Origin: the human T2T-CHM13v2.0 reference genome, Homo sapiens
Assembly: GCF_009914755.1 (NCBI RefSeq)
Contig: NC_060930.1
Reading direction: 5' to 3' (one strand)
Length of the DNA stretch: 64,000 nt
Shown here: in pieces, positions 1 to 58,208 of the stretch
Position numbering within the stretch: position 1 is the stretch's first letter
How the letters are laid out: every line of letters begins with the position of its first letter
Made by a program: the position numbers and the translations under genes
Notes under the pieces: generated by a model
Databases searched by the model: none
What the model saw: the letters and a program-made list of their open reading frames with translations, nothing else
What the model was told of the DNA's origin: nothing

Positions 1-1180
1 ACAGCTTTATGGTTTGTGATCTTGGTTTTCCTCCTTTCTCTTCTATGTTGCTTCTAGCCATTCTGGAGCATGTTAGAACTTCTCCAGAGGGAATGATAAG
101 GGAAAGCAGAACTGATTGTATCCAGAAATCTTATTGTTCATTTATTATAAAGGTCAAAAGCTTGGGGAAGAAATGTTGAGACTGAAGTCTGAAATTAACA
201 TTTTAATTTATCTTTGCTCATTTTGTTGTTGATATGATTATTTGATAATGGACTATTCTAAAAACATGGGAGAAAATAAAAATATTTGAATAAAGAAAGT
301 GCAAGAACAAAATGGGCATAATTTAGTAATGGATAGCTGCTGACTGCCCCACAGGTGCCTTGGATATAACCAAGGTAAAAAAAAAATTTCTTCATCTAGA
401 GACTGGTTCTGCCTCAAGGTAGGGGATTTTACTTCCAATATCAGTGCATATGAAAAAATGTATCAGAAACTCAATGTTGCGCAAACTTCAGGAAGTTCTC
501 TGAGGTACAGATGAAGCTTTTATAACTGGTTATATCTAATGCCTCAATATGATGCAGTGGAAGTCTCCCAGGAAAGTTATAGCAATGTTTCCTTCAAGAA
601 AAATAATTCTTCAATGTTTTCTTAACTGTGCGGGATGGAGATACCAGTTTTATGGCATTGAATTGTTGGGTGACCCTAGAGAATCCTAAAATGAGAGGAG
701 CAGCAATAGCTTCTTCTGCGTGAAACAGACAAAATGCATGTTTTTGAAAAATTCATTTGAGAAAAACGTGTAAGACTGTCTTCCAAAATCTGAAAGACAA
801 GACAGATATCTCTAATAGCACAATTCAAATGCTGCCTGTGGACCAGAGGTGGCCCACTAATGGATGGTTCCCCAGAGGAAGCATCCAGAAACTTCTTGAG
901 CTTCCAATATCAGTGCATATGAAAAAATGTAGTTTTTCATTGTAGCACCAAAAAAGATAGAGTATCCAAACACATGTTATCTTTCTGATTTTTCTTTTTT
1001 ATTGTATTTTAACAGTGTATTGGTTTGTGCTAAATTGGAAATATAAAAAACCAGTTTATCACCACATTGAATGTAAGAAACACTGTTTTCTATTTCCTGG
1101 CACAGTAAAGAGCTACATGATTGTTTAGAGCTCCTGATTCAGCCTTTTTTTAAATAAGTACAAACAAAAGCAATAGAGTA

Positions 1181-2493: not shown

Positions 2494-2715
<222 letters not shown>

Positions 2716-20970: not shown

Positions 20971-22775
20971 TGAGACATACTCCTTCCCTTGCCCTTGTCC
21001 TAATGGGGGGATGTTGAAGTCATTGTAGCCCAAATGAGTTCCAAAGAGTGGACAAGAGTAGCAGAATGAACTATTAATCTTCCTTCTATCAAAAAGTTGA
21101 AATGTCTGTTGCCACGCTTTCCTTCTTCGTGGGAACATTTTTTGCTTGCCTGTCATTTTAGGAGTTGAACCAATTGAAAGGTTCCTCACCATCACTTATA
21201 ATGATCTTTAGGTGGATAATTGGGACAGACTACTTTTCTTGATGAATTAATCTTTCACAAAGAGAAGGAAAGTAAAAACTCATCTATGGGACTTAACCAT
21301 CAGCTGTAACTCTTTTATGTATGTATTCATAGTCATACCTTTAAGAAAGCTTCTGAGGGCTATGTGTTAGGACAGGGCAGGAGTCTTTGTTTTGGGCAAT
21401 TCGGGAAAATATATTTGAAAATATATTTTTACTTTTTCTCCTTTGATCCAGCAAGGATGTTTTCCTGCTAATTTAATGGGTCATAGAATGAGTTATATTT
21501 GAAGTAAATTGCCTGATCAAGTATGAAATCAGAAATGTGAAGAATGAGAAATTTTCAGGACTTTGCCAGTGGAAGCCTTTCTGATAAGCACATAATACTG
21601 GTGCCAATGATGGTGATGGTTATAGGGAATGCTTTTTACTTATGTGCTGCCTTTACTTTAAAGAGACACAAATCATTTACATTCACAAATTGAGGAGCCC
21701 TGTATTTCCATCCCATTTTATATTGAAAATAATTGACATGAAAAATAAAGAACTTGGAAAAAAGAAAGCCCCAGCCCCAGGTGGAAGGAGTAGGTGGCCT
21801 TCCTCAGGAGGTTTGGAAAGGATCCCTCAACCCCTGACACTTCGCTTTCACAAAGACTTGCATTCTACAACTGGACTTCTTTTTTGTTTTTAAAAATTCT
21901 TTTATAAATGAATTTTTAAATTCATCATTATTATTTCAGAATAATTATTATTCATTCAGACTAAGAAGAGGATGCCCTAACAAAATTTAATGATGACCAA
22001 TGGAATTTTAAGAATTATTTAGAGATTTTTTTTTAAATCTAAGGTGAATGGAGAAGGAAAGAAAATAAAGAAAAAAATTATTTAGAGATGTAATGTAAAA
22101 TGTAAGGTGACCTAAATTCCCACTAAGGTATAAGGTATCATCAATATTGAATTACACTGTGGGTAGGTAACTTGTGCTGAATCCTGTCATCAGATCTTTT
22201 CCTGAAAAGTTTTAATGACTGAAGAGGCAAAAGAATTCAAAGCTGCTGCTCCTAAAATGCAGTGGGAGCACAGAGTGATGTAAATGGCCCCAGAAGAGAC
22301 GCCTGTACATGCCTGCAGATACACTGTCCCCACTTAGTTGTTGAGACTGGTCCTGTGGTCCAGGAGCCAGGACTTGCATGGGGTTCTTTAACAACCATCC
22401 GCTGCTCTGTCCATTATATGCTTTGGAGCTGATAAAGCCACCATCCCCCAAATGAGGTTAATGCCTTGTGGGGTTGGTAAATATCACTTTGTACACACCT
22501 AGCAAGAGACATAATATCTGTAGGTTAGGAGTTTCTGAAATTTTTCAAGCTGTAATTGTGCTTCTGCTTATAAAAAGCTAGATTGGATGTCTTAAGCCAT
22601 TAATATGTTGGCCTCATTCCTGCCTTATTCCTTTGCTATGAAGGCTTTTTATGTGTTTTAGCTTTTCTGTTTCTTTGTTTGTGAATGGTATCCCTCTCCC
22701 TCCCCTTTCCTAGTAATGCTGTTGCTTTATCTCTCTTCCATTCATATTTTTTTTCTTTCTTTTTGCTGCATGGAG

Positions 22776-22793
22776 ACTCTCTGCTGTACAAGT
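22776..22793 (+). CDS. CARMIL1: Candidate alternative 18-nt microexon of CARMIL1 (TLCCTS)
   Basis: 60-nt AG-free pyrimidine tract, then tgctgcatggag|ACTCTCTGCTGTACAAGT|gtaagt; phase 0/0, matching the intron it lies in. Confidence 0.7.
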
Positions 22794-25700
22794 GTAAGTA
22801 TTTTTTGGTGGCTCTGCGGTTTCTGGCTGTACTACTTTATATTCTTGTGCTCCATTTGCTTCTGTGCTGCCTGGCTGGTCTCCCAGGAGACTGTAGTGTT
22901 GTCATCCATCTGCAGATCCTGAATGAAATAGGCAACAATTTAGAGACAAGATTGGATTTTGCAAGATGGTTCAGCTAGCAAAACAGGCGATGAATTTAAA
23001 ATATCTCCAGCCATGTGCCTGAAAGCAAGCAGAGTGTTGATGAAGAGGATACAAACATTCAAGAGGAGACAAGTGCTTATTCCACTCATGTAATAATAAC
23101 AATAATAAAGACATGATTACTTTTAAGATTTTTTTCCTGATTCTTGTCATATTACTTGTTTCGGGCCCAGGGTTGTAGAAAATCGACATTATGATTTGCT
23201 TCTTATATTAGGAGAACTTTCCTAATCTTCTTCTCAGCTGGTATTGTTATTTTTTTTTTCTTTCTACAGCCTTGGTGGTGGGGGGAAGTAATTATGGATT
23301 CTTGAACTTGGAGTGAGAGTGTTATTTATTATTCTTTGAGCAAATGTGGCAAAAACAAAGCACCTCTTTCTATTTTTATGGTGACTTAAGCAACTTGACT
23401 CTCATTTTTTAAAAAAAAAAAGTATGTCTAGGAATTACATGTTAAAAGTGGGTTTGACAGGAAAAAAATGTTACGTTCTTTGGAAGGTTCCAAGATTAGT
23501 CTTTAACTTGTAGTAAAAGTAGACATATCTCAATTGAGCTATGTGCAGAATAGTTTAAAATTCATTATAAAAATTTGATCAAATGAGTACAATTTCAGAG
23601 TAATGTAGGCATTGATGCTTTTGGATTCTCAGAAAATAGAGTTGTGGCCTTTTTGTTCACAGTGTCTGCCACAATGGGGACTTATTGATGATTTGTGATG
23701 TTAGGACAAGAAAGAAGTCTGTGTTTAAGATTTTCCTGCTAAAATTACATTTAAAATAAGGGTTTAACACCTTTTTCCTCATACTTTTTTGGGATATGGG
23801 TTTTGAAAATTATACGTTATTGCTTGCAAGATGCATTTTTTAAGATAAGTTAATTTTGTCTAGGCCTCAAGTTGACAGTGTTAACCATTGATTGATGAGA
23901 GGTCCATTTGCAGTATGTACCTCTTCTTTTTCAAACGCTGACCCCCCTTCATCTGATGGACACTTTGTGATTTCTCTGACTCAGAAAGTACTTAGGCATT
24001 AACAAATGTCAGGGAAAGGTCAATAAGGACTAAGAAACAGTTTGAAAAAATTGACCCTTTCATTTTGGTACAAAAAGAGAAGAGAGCTAACAGTGTTAAA
24101 GAAGATGGTAAAGTCAGATTGTTTTCTTTTTCTGGGATGTATTTCATCAACCCAACAGTTGGGGAGGGGAGGAGGAAGGAGCGCAAATAAACCAAATTTC
24201 TAGACAAACATTAAATATTTGCTCCTAAATATACACTTAGGTGGATAATTATAGTACATTGTTATATTTCCTCTTGCTTTAGGTTTATATGTAATGGCAT
24301 TGTAGGAATAAGCCAATAAGATTAAGGAAGTCCACATTTTCTGTAAAACTAAGGAAGAATTACTTCCAAAGAAAAGTAATAAAAATATGGGAGAAATGAG
24401 ATTGAGTTTTTTTTTCTCTGTTGTTGCACTTAAATCCCATGAAGGAAAGATACAGAAGCTGGGTTGCCTTCTTAATACCAATTGTAGAAACTAGCCTGAT
24501 TACAAATTCTATTTTAGCAAAAGACCATTGGCTCTGTGCCAAAACTTCAGAACTACAAGATATGATAGGTATAGATTTATGGGAAATGTAATTAGAAGTT
24601 ACTTACCCTTGTAAAAAGCACACAAAATAAAGGAAAGCAAGTAAAATACATTAGAGTGAGTTTTTCTGATATTCAAGCTTTCTATACTGGGCTTTGAAGC
24701 ATTGGAAAACAAGACCAAGAGGAGAAAACTAGCTCCCCTTTGAGTGATATCAACCATCAAATTATCCTGATGATTTTGTGTGTTTCTTAATTATGTCTAT
24801 GAAATTAAACTAAGCTGAATGACCTATTCACAGATGGACATGAGTTTGCAAATGTGATTCTTTCTGTACATATTATATATTGTCATTTATTTTATATATA
24901 GTACATATTTTTATATGTTTAAAATTATAATATATTTGAAATATAATTTTTATATATTTTACATTTATTTGGTATCATAAAGACTTTCATGATATGGAAA
25001 CTTAAACCAGACTATTTTTGCCTATGAATACACTTCCTGTAAAATATAATCAAGAGTCAGGGAAAAAAAAAAAAAAGACATCTTCAGTCCATGCATTTTT
25101 AAACATCTTTCCTCTTTATTTGTGACAATCTAAATGAAATTGGCTAAAAATTATATCTGAAGCTACTTCTTGATTATTTTACCTACCATGATTGTGCACA
25201 AGATGGATAGAATACTGAAGAACTTGTTGCGACCAAACACAGCATATATTTTGATAGCTTGTATCTCCTGAGAATTACTTTCAGAGATTTCACTTGTGAA
25301 TAGACCAGGCAGGCCACTAACTTCTTCAGCCAACTGCATGGCTAACTTTGGGGAGAACTGCCTTAAACTGGATTCCTTTCCATTTGCATTGAGTTAGCTG
25401 AGTTTTTATTGAACCTGCAAAGCCTGTTACTTTATAAATAGCTTTTCCTCAGTTTGTCTGCCTTTAACAAAACCTTGAAAAAAGCCAAATCGGCAAGTTT
25501 CATTTTGTATTTTAGGAAAACCAGTCTGGATTTCAATACAATTGCTAATCATTTTTTTATCTCCCTTTTCTCTCAACAATAAATAATAGCAAAATGATAT
25601 TATTAAAACTGGCATAATTGTCAAAACTATAGATTTGTTTGCTTTAAAGATCAGTATCAGCCAGTTTCTCCTTGGAGCTAAAGAATGTTTTTCAATCATG

Positions 25701-26727: not shown

Positions 26728-26865
<138 letters not shown>

Positions 26866-36840: not shown

Positions 36841-39279
36841 AACATTCCATGATTATTCAGTTCACTAATTAGCACTCCTTGGTATATCTGTTCAAAGAAT
36901 TACTAATGCACCTAATTGTCCTTACTTCCTGCCCATTCCTCTCCATCTAGCCAATGAAGACATTGTGAGAGATTTGGCAGCTGCCGCATCAAAATCCAGG
37001 TGCACCGCCTACTGTCTTTCCCTGGTGTATTCACTGTAATAATCCTGGCAGAGGGAAAACAGGGTGGTCTGAATTGTCTTTAGTCCTCACGATCACCAGC
37101 TTATTTTCTCAGCATTCACGAGTTATCCTTTTAGCACTTACACACTGGAGGTGCAAAATCTACCTTCTTTATCAAATATCAGCAACAGCGATTCCTGATT
37201 TTATTTGTAAAAGCCTTTCTCTGAGTGCAAATGCAGTGGATTCTGGCCCCAGGCTCACGGCTGAGGTTTTTGCTCCCTCCTTTTCCAACAGCTGTTCTAC
37301 CCTTTTCAGTCTGAAATGTATTCTCCTTGACAGAAAAGACCAAAAGCAAATGGGATTTTGAGAACTTCTGATAACTGTTTGTCCTTTCCTTTGCTTTTGT
37401 TAGAAAAGGAGCTGAAACAGCATGTACATTTGACCTTGAACCCTTTTGCAAACTACATTTCAATTCAGTCTTCAGTTTTTCTACTGCTCTTCACGTAGGC
37501 TGATGCCACCTCCTGCTTCCTATTTTAACAGATGCATTTTAAACCATGTCTCATGGAAGATCTCCCAGTGATACTGGACTTCTCTTAATCTTTCTGCTCT
37601 CTGTCTCTTTATCTCTAAAATGACAGGGTTGGACTGGAGGATCTGTAGGGGCCAGTCCAGCCCTAAAAGCTGGGCTGTCCTGCAGGAAAGCAAACTGTTT
37701 TGTTCAGCTCTGTGCCTCCATCTCTGAAACCCATTGATGTACCCCACATCCCCAGAGAACCTTTTGTGCTGGCTGTGACTTCTGTTTCCAAGCAGGAAAA
37801 GAGAAATTTTTCCTGAGGGAAGAAATTATACAAGTAAAACTTTGTTTTTTTTTTGTTTGTTTGTTTGTTTCAAAATGAAAAGAGGAATCATTGGGGGAAG
37901 CTGGGAGGAAGCCCTGTGTTAGGACCGTATGTCCTGGGGTCGCATCTTTCTTCATCCATCAATCAGGTGACCAGTGTGGGTGCCGCTAACCTTCTGAGCC
38001 ACTGTTTGATCTGTGACTAACCAAAAAGTAGGATAGTACTATCTCTTTCAGTTTAAAGGGTAGACGTAAGGGTGACATAATAACGTGTAAAACACATGTA
38101 AACTGTCAAGAACTATATTAACTTAAGGGGCTATTACTGCTATAGAGATTCTATCCTCAATACTTTTCCAAAAGGGAAAAATAATATAATACAAGCAAGT
38201 TCTGTACTACTTTATCTTTTGTAATCAAAGTTTTTCAGTGAGCTTTTTTCTCTGCATAACGGAATTATAGAACTTTGCTGATTGTCTGCTCTTGTGCAAC
38301 ATGTAGGAAAACCTTGCTCCAATATAAAGCACCATTCAGATGAGAGGTGTAATTGTTATTTCATAGGGTTCTTTGCCTATTATCTGTTGTCTCTTCACTT
38401 TTCAGCATGTCACAAACATGAACTCAAACACATAGTTCATTTTCGTAATGAGAGCTTCCCAATGAATGAAGCGGATGATTGTTCAAGGGGTTTTTTCTTT
38501 AAACAATTTCCATACAGACATAAGCCATGTTCCCCCTAGGCACCTTGAGACTTGCAAATCAAGATTACAGGAAACAGCTTTCCCACCGCTCTATGGCAAG
38601 ACATCTAGACCAGGTATCCCAACCACATGAGAATTTGTCCTTGTATCCAACAGCATGGGCAAGATGCATGCTCTCTCTCAGTCATCCACAACCTATCTGT
38701 GAAATATTAATATACATTGCAGACACAAATCAAGCATCTGACTAAGCTTACTATGAGTTGTCCTTTCAAAGAGACATGCTAACTTAGTATAGCTTTCTGA
38801 TAGCTTCTCACCAGCCTCTCTCATAAGATCGGAGTTTTTGGCTGCCTGCTGGACACCTGCTTCTGGATTTCCCACAATACCTCAAACACTCAAGAAGATA
38901 AGATACAGCTTTTCCCCCAAATATGATATTTGTAACGTGTTCCCTAGAACCATGTCCCCATTTACCTGGCCTAGAAACTTTGACCATATCTTGGGCAGCT
39001 CTTGTCTTTCCATTCTCACTTCTCCACTTCATTAGTTCCTCATCACCTCCAGATTACATTAAATTATTCAAGAGTCTTTGATTTCAGCTCCTGAACAGGT
39101 TTACCTACTTATATTCTCTGGCGTCTCCAATTGGTCCTTCATACTGCCCCAGAATTACCTCCCCAGAATTCAGGCTGGGCCATGCTGCTGCATTGGTGGC
39201 TCCCTATCATCTAAGCAGTAAATTCCTTCTTCCTTAGCATAAGGCTCAAGGCTGTTCCTTATGGGTTATTGTATTATTA

Positions 39280-55856: not shown

Positions 55857-55988
55857 ATGACATTCCAGACTCTCCATCTAGCCCGAAAGTTGCCCTTCTT
55901 CCACCTGTCCTGAAAAAAGTTCCTTCAGACAAAGAGAGAGATGGCCAGAGTAGCCCCCAGCCCAGCCCCAGGACATTTTCACAGGAAG
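55857..55988 (+). CDS. CARMIL1: CARMIL1 coding exon, 132 nt, phase 1/1 (DDIPDSPSSPKVALLPPVLKKVPSDKERDGQSSPQPSPRTFSQE)
   Basis: Acceptor gtgtctccttag|AT and donor GAAG|gtaagg; core of ORF 55820-56023. Confidence 0.95.
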
Positions 55989-58183: not shown

Positions 58184-58208
58184 CATGCCCAACTAATTTC
58201 TGAAACAG
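58184..58208 (+). CDS. CARMIL1: Candidate alternative 25-nt exon giving C-terminus ACPTNF* (stop TGA 58201-58203)
   Basis: Branch-like ctgat (58141) and pyrimidine tract, then gactag|CATGCCCAACTAATTTCTGAAACAG|gtaaat; phase-1 entry matches the upstream exon. Confidence 0.7.

What the first reader, a model, noticed from the sequence alone, without database searches (positions are those of the whole stretch)
22711..22799. Hidden 18-nt in-frame microexon (TLCCTS) with neural-microexon signature, adding a di-cysteine next to a polybasic patch
Seen: deep in the 24-kb intron is a 60-nt AG-free pyrimidine-rich zone (22714-22773), tandem TGC/TGCATG at 22764-22772 just before an unusual GAG acceptor, then ACT CTC TGC TGT ACA AGT and a gtaagt donor. 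It is phase 0/0, so inclusion gives ...[20 protein letters not shown]... Established: UGC close to the 3' splice site with a long AG-exclusion zone marks SRRM3/SRRM4-dependent microexons; UGCAUG is the RBFOX site; Cys pairs beside basic residues are frequent S-palmitoylation sites. Inference: a tissue-specific splice switch that lipidates CARMIL1 about 65 residues upstream of the CPI motif, changing where capping protein is uncapped. The exon may already be catalogued.
Basis: partly seen in the sequence, partly recalled or inferred. Interest (0 to 1): 0.82.

Follow-up and report, generated by a model that had tools for sequence, protein, structure and literature searches.

The report
Known retina-enriched CARMIL1 microexon
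This 18-base piece is a real, anciently conserved and already catalogued mini-exon of the actin regulator CARMIL1, used mainly in the retina, and what its six extra amino acids do is still untested.

Summary
The exon is 22776-22793 and encodes TLCCTS in phase 0/0. It has a gAG acceptor, a GTAAGT donor, a 60-nt AG-free zone and TGCTGCATG just upstream. This combination occurs once in the window and in 0 of 300 simulated introns.

The exon is not hidden. RefSeq lists it, and VastDB names it HsaEX0036505. Ciampi et al. 2022 list it as a human retina-enriched microexon: PSI 65 in retina, 20 in neural tissue and 2 elsewhere. Ectopic SRRM3 or SRRM4 raised its inclusion in all eight comparisons listed.

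TLCCTS is letter-identical in all 120 best-matching protein models, from mammals, birds, lizards, tuatara and turtles. None of 120 listed teleost-query hits has an insertion there.

The UGCAUG lies upstream of the exon, where RBFOX is expected to repress. That fits retina-over-brain use.

One point appears in none of the CARMIL1 or microexon texts I opened or searched. The insert falls between M914 and M915, two residues before the "antenna" (T916-A935). The antenna docks on the LRR dimer and maintains CARMIL1 autoinhibition.

Palmitoylation remains plausible but untested. A change in autoinhibition is at least as likely.

Verdict: a real feature, already known; its function is open.

The parts
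2494..2643 (+). Upstream constitutive CARMIL1 exon. It ends ...[16 protein letters not shown] (M914) in phase 0.
   Evidence: Hub table; translation; numbering.
22714..22773 (+). AG-exclusion zone of 60 nt, pyrimidine-rich.
22730..22736 (+). UCUCUC element. It is the upstream half of the bipartite UCU_CUC...UGC intronic enhancer described for SRRM3/4 microexons, and also looks like a PTBP1 site.
   Evidence: motif definition from passages of bioRxiv 10.1101/2024.09.17.613571.
22741..22745 (+). Best branch-point-like YUNAY (TTCAT), with the A at 22744, 31 nt from the acceptor. Alternatives have the A at 22729 (46 nt) and 22716 (59 nt).
   Evidence: Pattern scan. This is inference; it was not mapped.
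22747..22764 (+). Uninterrupted 18-nt U-rich polypyrimidine tract.
22764..22772 (+). TGCTGCATG: two UGC motifs at -12 and -9 (the SRRM3/4 eMIC target), overlapping a UGCAUG (RBFOX motif) in the upstream, repressive position.
   Evidence: literature passages.
22773..22775 (+). Weak gAG acceptor.
   Evidence: All 8 exons of the selected transcript in the window use YAG.
22776..22793 (+). 18-nt cassette microexon encoding TLCCTS, phase 0/0. VastDB HsaEX0036505.
   Evidence: hub table.
22794..22799 (+). Consensus GTAAGT donor.
26728..26794 (+). Downstream constitutive exon. It starts M915[21 protein letters not shown] and so encodes the antenna (T916-A935).
   Evidence: Barrie et al. 2026 passages.
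22916..24878 (+). Alternative terminal exon, 122 nt downstream of the microexon. Read in phase 0 it adds 20 residues and then a stop. It is context only, not part of the cassette event.
   Evidence: Hub table.

Best explanation
Exon 22776-22793 is a bona fide alternative microexon of CARMIL1, conserved at least across amniotes.

Regulation. The 3' splice site is built so that it fails by default. It has a gAG acceptor, and the strong U-tract and branch point are pushed 10-30 nt or more away from the AG. In that gap sits UGCUGC, the target of the eMIC domain of SRRM3/SRRM4. Where SRRM3/4 are abundant, they rescue recognition of the 3' splice site. Together with the consensus GUAAGU donor this defines the 18-nt exon. 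The overlapping upstream UGCAUG and the CU-rich elements are placed where RBFOX and PTBP1 would repress. That would explain why inclusion is high in retina, whose photoreceptors are reported to have very little RBFOX, only partial in brain, and near zero elsewhere.

Protein. Inclusion inserts TLCCTS between M914 and M915. This is the hinge between the helical dimerization region and the antenna (T916-A935). The antenna is the helix-loop that docks at the LRR-LRR junction of the dimer and contributes to autoinhibition of capping-protein uncapping.

Most likely consequence (inferred, not shown). The longer, cysteine-rich hinge (C913-M-T-L-C-C directly before TPKSKRK) changes how the antenna docks. 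That would retune autoinhibition and the positioning of the capping-protein-binding region. This could happen through geometry alone, or through S-acylation of the new cysteines pulling the hinge to the membrane.

My odds:
- Exon identity, tissue pattern and SRRM3/4 activation: at least 0.95.
- Repression by RBFOX in neurons: about 0.5.
- An effect on antenna or autoinhibition: about 0.45.
- S-acylation of the Cys pair: about 0.3.
For: Sequence and chance tests.

Annotation: the hub table lists 22776-22793 among exons of other transcripts.

Protein models:
- 27 of the 120 hits listed carry TLCCTS at the junction.
- All 120 of the 120 best hits carry it letter for letter. They include primates, rodents, artiodactyls, seals, a shrew, a bat, a sengi, marsupials, many birds including palaeognaths, lizards, tuatara and turtles.
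- An unnamed, more divergent representative, P0217 (72% identical), has it too.

Published data (Ciampi et al. 2022, PMC9303857, supplements read):
- HsaEX0036505, 18 nt: retina PSI 65.42, average of 23 other tissue groups 1.93, neural 20.29.
- Change in PSI +13.64 with SRRM3 and +16.55 with SRRM4 in HEK293.
- Change in PSI +6.11 to +46.23 with SRRM4 in six other lines.
- Change in PSI 0 with MSI1 in HEK293.

Cis rules:
- Passages: UGC enrichment upstream of retina-enriched microexons, and upstream Rbfox, Nova and Elavl motifs expected to repress, with these factors low in photoreceptors.
- Passages: strong but distant Py tract and branch point, the bipartite UCU_CUC...UGC enhancer, and strong 5' splice sites.

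Hinge location:
- The antenna is T916-A935, docks on K557-S569 and R175-D190, and R927E/R930E partly relieves autoinhibition (Barrie et al. 2026, PMC13004031).
- Every one of these residue numbers was checked on the stored human isoform.
- R927, R930 and P931 are invariant in my 44-sequence alignment of the CARMIL family.
- The solved construct 9EC0 aligns 10 residues shorter than P0037, which fits the absence of both the 4-residue and the 6-residue inserts.
- C913 is Cys in 117 of 117 insert-bearing forms and 202 of 211 insert-lacking forms that matched my anchor.
Against: - No experiment on the protein consequence exists in anything I could read.
- The hg38 coordinates in the published tables were matched to this CHM13 window by gene name and 18-nt length only, not by liftover.
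- SRRM3/4 effects are from overexpression. I saw no loss-of-function value for this exon.
- The retina value rests on 2 replicates, and the neural value is very variable (SD 19.97).
- RBFOX repression is a class-level inference, not tested for this exon.
- 0 of 120 listed hits of the teleost query carry an insertion. So the exon may be absent from teleosts, or simply unannotated there.
- Protein models are gene predictions.
- AlphaFold2 models with and without the insert have pLDDT below 50 across the hinge and antenna, so they say nothing either way.
- Full invariance of all six residues is no stronger than that of the 50-residue surroundings. It does not single out the cysteines.
Confidence: 0.85

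Rival explanations
1. The Cys pair beside the basic residues is S-palmitoylated, so the splice switch lipidates CARMIL1 and relocates capping-protein uncapping to membranes.
For: - Inclusion creates the only CC dipeptide in the 1381-residue isoform. With the conserved C913 it forms a C-x3-CC cluster directly before TPKSKRK.
- Di-cysteines next to basic or hydrophobic residues are classic S-acylation contexts. This is general knowledge that I recalled, for example the N-terminus of GAP-43.
- CARMIL1 already works at membranes through its PH and basic-hydrophobic domains (passages).
- This reading is compatible with the hinge reading rather than exclusive of it.
Against: - There is no acylation evidence. 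'carmil1'+'palmitoyl' gave 16 papers and 'lrrc16a'+'palmitoyl' gave 3, and none concerns this by title or abstract start.
- The word 'palmitoyl' occurs 0 times in the 2026 structural paper.
- In the solved structure the adjacent basic residues are engaged with the LRR junction, not free.
- All six residues are invariant, not only the cysteines, which points to a stricter constraint than a loose acylation motif needs.
Confidence: 0.3
2. It is an RBFOX-activated neuronal exon, with the UGCAUG acting as its enhancer.
For: A perfect UGCAUG lies at 22767-22772, and the exon has some neural inclusion (PSI 20.29).
Against: - The motif is upstream of the exon, and there is no GCAUG within 200 nt downstream or up to 23300.
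- Upstream binding is expected to repress (passage).
- Inclusion is about threefold higher in retina than in neural tissue, and RBFOX factors are reported to be very low in photoreceptors.
Confidence: 0.05
3. The insert acts through neither lipid nor hinge geometry. It adds Thr/Ser phospho-acceptors, or a short docking motif for a retina-specific or neuron-specific partner, next to the T916-P917 site.
For: - Three of the six residues are Thr or Ser, and all six are invariant.
- Microexons often modify interaction surfaces (passage).
- CARMIL1 activity is tuned by phosphorylation elsewhere, at T1035 and S1039.
Against: No partner or kinase is known, and no data were seen. The Ciampi domain table shows no Pfam or PROSITE overlap for this event.
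Confidence: 0.15
4. The microexon mainly feeds a truncated isoform. Its donor would splice to the alternative terminal exon at 22916, giving a CARMIL1 that ends shortly after TLCCTS and lacks the antenna, the capping-protein-binding region and the proline-rich tail.
For: The terminal exon starts 122 nt downstream. Read in phase 0 it gives 20 residues and then a stop.
Against: - Every TLCCTS-bearing model I retrieved continues with MTPKSKRK, except P0050, which diverges after the insert.
- 0 of 483 stored proteins contain the predicted tail. My lists were each cut at 120, so this is weak evidence.
Confidence: 0.07
5. Inclusion is splicing noise with no function.
For: Inclusion is modest outside retina, and the response to SRRM4 is variable (+6 to +46).
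Against: - The hexapeptide is identical in mammals, birds, squamates, tuatara and turtles.
- The exon preserves the reading frame.
- The cis architecture is highly non-random.
- Retina PSI is 65.
Confidence: 0.03

Closest known systems
Retina-enriched microexons (RetMICs) of the SRRM3 programme (Ciampi et al. 2022, PNAS, PMC9303857)
   Same: The exon is listed by name in their human RetMIC table. It is 18 nt, has upstream UGC, responds to SRRM3/4, does not respond to MSI1 in HEK293, and has an upstream Rbfox-type motif like the class.
   Different: It has some of the highest leakage into neural tissue within the class (PSI 20). Its host gene is an actin regulator, not one of the cilium or vesicle-transport genes the authors highlight. 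The mouse sheet lists a different Lrrc16a exon of 25 nt. No 'carmil1' or 'lrrc16a' entry for the 18-nt exon was found in the other species' sheets.
Neuronal SRRM4/nSR100-dependent microexons (Irimia et al. 2014; architecture as summarised in bioRxiv 10.1101/2024.09.17.613571)
   Same: The exon is between 3 and 27 nt and preserves the frame. It has a weak acceptor, a distant strong Py tract and branch point, UGC between the Py tract and the AG, a consensus donor and deep conservation.
   Different: Inclusion peaks in retina rather than brain, and the RBFOX motif is upstream rather than downstream. The Irimia paper itself was not held, so I did not check whether it lists this exon.
CARMIL1 antenna motif (Barrie et al. 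2026, Sci Adv, PMC13004031; PDB 9EC0)
   Same: The insert lies two residues before the antenna's first ordered residue. The basic residues next to the insert belong to that motif.
   Different: The solved and assayed protein is the insert-lacking isoform. In that paper's text 'splic' occurs once, about capping protein beta, and I saw no mention of CARMIL1 splice isoforms in what I read.
Dual-cysteine S-acylation motifs next to basic residues (for example the GAP-43 N-terminus; recalled from general knowledge)
   Same: A hydrophobic residue followed by Cys-Cys, with a basic cluster within ten residues.
   Different: The motif is internal rather than terminal, in a segment that docks on a folded domain, and there is no acylation evidence.

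Membership tests
SRRM3/SRRM4 (eMIC)-dependent microexon | Cassette exon of 3-27 nt, usually frame-preserving | tested here: met
   18 nt, phase 0/0, no stop.
SRRM3/SRRM4 (eMIC)-dependent microexon | UGC between the polypyrimidine tract and the AG, close to the 3' splice site | tested here: met
   TGC at -12 and -9, directly after the U-tract. Rule taken from passages.
SRRM3/SRRM4 (eMIC)-dependent microexon | Weak 3' splice-site context, with a strong Py tract and branch point displaced from the AG (long AG-exclusion zone) | tested here: met
   gAG acceptor, AG-free zone of 60 nt, 18-nt U-tract ending 9 nt before the AG dinucleotide. Branch-point candidates are 31-59 nt upstream. No MaxEnt or SVM-BP scoring was available.
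SRRM3/SRRM4 (eMIC)-dependent microexon | Strong 5' splice site | tested here: met
   GTAAGT matches the consensus at +1 to +6. The exon's last bases, AGT, are off-consensus.
SRRM3/SRRM4 (eMIC)-dependent microexon | Inclusion rises when SRRM3 or SRRM4 is expressed | tested here: met
   Published change in PSI of +13.64 with SRRM3 and +6.11 to +46.23 with SRRM4 in 7 cell lines. All 8 values are positive (PMC9303857 dataset sd06, read).
SRRM3/SRRM4 (eMIC)-dependent microexon | Inclusion falls when SRRM3/4 are depleted | not tested
   No loss-of-function value for this exon was seen.
Retina-enriched microexon (RetMIC) | Retina PSI far above all other tissues by the authors' criteria | tested here: met
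   Listed in sheet hg38_RetMICs: retina 65.42, others 1.93, maximum of others 20.29.
RBFOX-activated exon | (U)GCAUG in the downstream intron, typically within about 300 nt | tested here: not met
   No GCATG from 22794 to 23300. The only copies nearby are upstream, at 22376 and 22768.
S-palmitoylated Cys-Cys/polybasic membrane anchor | Adjacent cysteines in a hydrophobic and basic context | tested here: met
   L-C-C, with C913 four residues before and KSKRK five to nine residues after.
S-palmitoylated Cys-Cys/polybasic membrane anchor | Demonstrated thioester-linked acylation and acylation-dependent membrane binding | not testable with these tools
   This needs a bench assay. Literature searches found nothing relevant.
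CARMIL antenna motif | Helix-loop T916-A935 with the conserved R927, R930 and P931 following the dimerization region | tested here: met
   Residue numbers were verified on the stored human isoform. R/R/P are invariant in 44 sequences. The insert lies outside the motif, at its N-terminal edge.

The most novel reading that the evidence does not exclude
The microexon is a splice-installed lipid switch on the autoinhibition hinge of CARMIL1. In photoreceptors, and in a subset of neurons, the C913/CC cluster is S-acylated. That pulls the hinge onto the membrane and dislodges the adjacent antenna from the LRR-LRR junction. The retinal isoform would then be constitutively de-repressed exactly where it is membrane-bound, for example at sites of actin-driven membrane protrusion such as the base of the outer segment. 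The second retina-enriched microexon of the same gene replaces the C-terminal tail and is found together with TLCCTS in one rodent model (P0215). The two would then jointly define a dedicated 'retinal CARMIL1'.
Probability: 0.12. Interest if true: 0.65.

Novelty: already known. Interest (0 to 1): 0.35.

Why it matters
The exon, its tissue pattern and its regulators are already in public annotation and in a published supplement, so finding it in the sequence adds nothing new.

What this check adds is the placement of the insert. The six residues land at the N-terminal edge of the antenna, which a 2026 cryo-EM study identified as a determinant of CARMIL1 autoinhibition. That study used only the insert-lacking isoform.

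This turns a vague "microexon in a disordered linker" into a concrete question that existing assays can answer: does the conserved retinal isoform uncap actin filaments differently, and is its cysteine cluster acylated?

It also offers a worked example of how an upstream RBFOX motif may separate photoreceptor use from neuronal use of an SRRM3/4 microexon.

Tried and rejected
- AlphaFold2 of a gorilla isoform with the insert (P0008, alignment A1, 44 rows) and without it (P0007, alignment A2, 36 rows). Mean pLDDT was 58.6 and 60.2. The whole region after residue 677 of these N-terminally truncated isoforms, about canonical residue 873, is below 50 in both, including the hinge and antenna. The apparent extension of a helix through TLCC therefore carries no weight. 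The monomer also lacks the dimer interface where the antenna binds.\n- A dimer or complex prediction was not attempted. Two LRR domains plus the antenna exceed the 1000-residue limit.\n- ESM Atlas look-up of the unnamed representative P0217 gave no usable hit.\n- Rfam scan of 21500-25000 on both strands gave 0 matches.\n- Main-text literature searches:\n - 'carmil1'+'microexon': 0 papers.\n - 'lrrc16a'+'microexon': 1 irrelevant paper.\n - 'HsaEX0036505': 0 papers.\n - 'carmil1'+'photoreceptor'+'outer segment': 1 irrelevant paper.\n- Zebrafish microexon paper PMC12626420: 12 of its 13 supplementary files were searched, with 0 occurrences of carmil1 or lrrc16a.\n- Irimia et al. 2014 (PMC4390143) is not held.\n- The published pancreatic-islet microexon paper was not found in the library, and bioRxiv supplements are closed.


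Full report

Yes, base for base.

- The last AG before the exon is at 22712-22713, so 22714-22773 is a 60-nt AG-free zone.
- That zone contains UCUCUC (22730-22736), an uninterrupted 18-nt U-rich tract (22747-22764) and then TGCTGCATG (22764-22772).
- The acceptor is gAG (22773-22775).
- The exon ACTCTCTGCTGTACAAGT (22776-22793) reads TLCCTS.
- The donor is the consensus GTAAGT (22794-22799).
- The upstream exon ends ...DLDTCM and the downstream exon begins MTPKSKRK..., so the exon is phase 0/0.

**2. Is it more than chance?**

- In the 24-kb intron there are 2327 AG-(3..27)-GT arrangements. Of these, 36 have a GTRAGT donor and 8 are in frame and open.
- Among the 36, this is the only one with an AG-free zone above 30 nt, a pyrimidine fraction above 0.6 and a UGC within 12 nt.
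- Of 4344 AG dinucleotides on the + strand of the window, 69 have an AG-free zone of at least 60 nt. Three of those also have at least 80% pyrimidines, and one also has a nearby UGC: this site.
- The composite signature is found once on the + strand and never on the - strand.
- It is found in 0 of 300 first-order Markov simulations of the intron, and in 5 of 300 when thresholds are loosened.
- All 8 exons of the selected transcript in the window use YAG acceptors. The gAG is unusual locally.

**3. What is it?**

It is an annotated and catalogued microexon.

- The hub's RefSeq table lists 22776-22793 among exons of other CARMIL1 transcripts.
- A protein search with the upstream exon listed 120 hits, of which 113 span the junction as expected. 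26 of these carry TLCCTS and 87 do not. One further model (P0050) has TLCCTS followed by a divergent junction, and 6 others read on differently.
- A search centred on the insert returned 120 listed hits, and all 120 carry TLCCTS letter for letter. 94 were new and 26 had been seen before.
- Those hits include apes, Old and New World monkeys, Mus pahari, Meriones, cattle, buffalo, deer, pig, seals, a shrew, a horseshoe bat, a sengi, wombat, Antechinus, many birds including tinamou and emu, geckos, Pogona, Podarcis, Anolis, Sceloporus, tuatara and two turtles.
- An unnamed representative that is only 72% identical to the gorilla protein (P0217) also has it, after ...LEELDTCV.
- A search from a turbot CARMIL1 listed 120 hits: 113 named teleosts, 3 records without an organism name and 4 squirrels. 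None has any insertion at the junction.
- That last result is only weak evidence of absence. Insert-bearing forms would rank lower in such a search, and microexons are often missed by gene predictors.
- CARMIL2-like and CARMIL3-like representatives have no Cys pair at the equivalent place.

**4. Published expression and regulation**

The supplements of Ciampi et al. 2022 (PMC9303857) name the event CARMIL1 HsaEX0036505, hg38 chr6:25576976-25576993, 18 nt.

- Sheet hg38_RetMICs gives retina PSI 65.42 (2 replicates), a mean of 1.93 in 23 other tissue groups, and neural PSI 20.29 (SD 19.97), which is also the maximum among the others.
- Dataset sd06 gives the change in PSI on ectopic expression:
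  - SRRM3 in HEK293: +13.64.
  - SRRM4: +16.55 (HEK293), +9.15, +6.11, +46.23 (HeLa), +32.14, +9.28 and +27.93 (SH-SY5Y).
  - MSI1 in HEK293: 0.
- Their domain table shows no Pfam or PROSITE overlap for this event.
- I matched the hg38 event to this CHM13 window by gene and length, not by liftover.
- No main text in the library mentions the event or pairs CARMIL1 with "microexon".

**5. How splicing most likely works**

The architecture is the textbook one for SRRM3/4 targets, as summarised in passages I read. These targets have a strong 5' splice site. They have a strong Py tract and branch point placed far from the AG, which leaves a weak 3' splice-site context. They carry a bipartite UCU_CUC...UGC enhancer whose UGC is bound through the eMIC domain.

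Here branch-point-like sites lie 31, 46 or 59 nt upstream (inferred, not mapped). The order is U-tract, then UGCUGC, then gAG.

It lies at -9 to -4, and no GCAUG lies between the donor and 23300. Ciampi et al. report that retina-enriched microexons, unlike neuronal ones, are enriched for Rbfox, Nova and Elavl motifs in the upstream intron, where binding should repress. They also report that these factors are very low in photoreceptors.

The exon therefore fits a model of "SRRM3/4 on, RBFOX off". That accounts for retina over brain over everything else. It is shown at class level and inferred for this exon.

**6. What the insert does to the protein**

This is the part that is still open.

Barrie et al. 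2026 (PMC13004031; abstract, passages and section 7 part 1 read) solved residues 1-1046 of human CARMIL1 bound to capping protein (PDB 9EC0). They found a new element, the antenna.

- The antenna is residues T916-A935, a helix-loop that follows the dimerization domain.
- It docks at the junction of the two LRR domains (K557-S569 and R175-D190).
- When it is disrupted (R927E/R930E), autoinhibition of uncapping is partly relieved and cell spread area increases.

I checked each of these residue numbers on the stored human isoform, and all match. The exon junction is M914|M915. TLCCTS is therefore inserted two residues before the first ordered residue of the antenna.

The "polybasic patch" KSKRK is the antenna's N-terminal part. 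The membrane-binding basic-hydrophobic domain described for CARMIL1 is elsewhere, at 1059-1082. R927, R930 and P931 are invariant in my 44-sequence alignment of the family. The solved chain aligns 10 residues shorter than P0037, which fits the absence of both inserts. In that paper's text "palmitoyl" occurs 0 times and "splic" once, about capping protein beta.

With the conserved C913, inclusion produces a C-M-T-L-C-C cluster abutting the antenna. C913 is Cys in 117 of 117 insert-bearing forms and 202 of 211 insert-lacking forms that matched my anchor.

My best reading is that the insert retunes antenna docking, and hence autoinhibition and the positioning of the capping-protein module. I put this at about 0.45. 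S-acylation of the cysteines is a plausible and compatible way of doing so, at about 0.3. Both are inferences.

AlphaFold2 models with and without the insert were uninformative, with pLDDT below 50 throughout this region.

**7. Comparison with what is known, and novelty**

- By the sequence features and the published response, the exon is a member of the SRRM3/4 microexon class and specifically of the published RetMIC set.
- It fails the test for an RBFOX-activated exon.
- It has the sequence look of a dual-cysteine acylation site, but the defining biochemical feature cannot be tested here.
- As a genomic feature it is already known.
- Its position at the antenna hinge is not mentioned in the Barrie text as far as I read it, nor in any paper my searches returned. 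This rests. Supplements I could not open may bear on it.

**8. Limits**

- No vertebrate genome DNA could be searched, so nucleotide conservation is untested.
- Irimia 2014 was not held, and the published islet microexon paper was not found.
- Protein models are predictions.

Noticed in passing
window 58184-58208 (+): A second microexon candidate of 25 nt. It has a tAG acceptor, a GTAAAT donor, a 106-nt AG-free zone, 76% pyrimidines and a TGC within 25 nt upstream. It is not in the hub's RefSeq exon list. Read after exon 55857-55988 it gives ...SQE-ACPTNF-stop, replacing the last ~45 residues that end ...EFIFV. 2 of 483 stored proteins end this way: P0005 (a gibbon) and P0215 (Mus pahari X8), and P0215 also carries TLCCTS. 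The mouse RetMIC sheet of Ciampi et al. lists a 25-nt Lrrc16a exon, MmuEX0026939, with retina PSI 81.7, others 1.87 and neural 35.78. That is probably the orthologue. The stop lies 6 nt before what is inferred to be the last exon junction, so the transcript should escape NMD. This is inference.
   Followed up: partly
window 22916-24878 (+): An alternative terminal exon starts 122 nt after the microexon. In phase 0 it adds ILNEIGNNLETRLDFARWFS and a stop. The resulting CARMIL1 would lack the antenna, the capping-protein-binding region and the proline-rich tail. None of 483 stored proteins has this tail. The nearest AATAAA/ATTAAA is about 74 nt before the annotated end.
   Followed up: partly
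window 58544/58547 (+): There are tandem CAG|TAG acceptors 3 nt apart (NAGNAG) on the alternative 150/147-nt exon. That exon adds a 50-residue insert near the C-terminus in isoform P0040.
   Followed up: no
window 51867/51885 (+): Alternative acceptors 18 nt apart probably account for the 6-residue difference after residue 1211 between the stored human isoforms (hub table).
   Followed up: partly
window 2638-2640 (codon of C913): The cysteine just before the splice junction is conserved even where no microexon is annotated. That includes most hits of the teleost query. Overall 202 of 211 insert-lacking forms matched by my anchor have it. The residue may matter on its own.
   Followed up: partly
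window 36951-36964 (+): A 14-nt AG...GTGAGA arrangement has a 51-nt AG-free zone, 76% pyrimidines and a nearby TGC. It is not annotated and would shift the frame, so it is probably a decoy.
   Followed up: no
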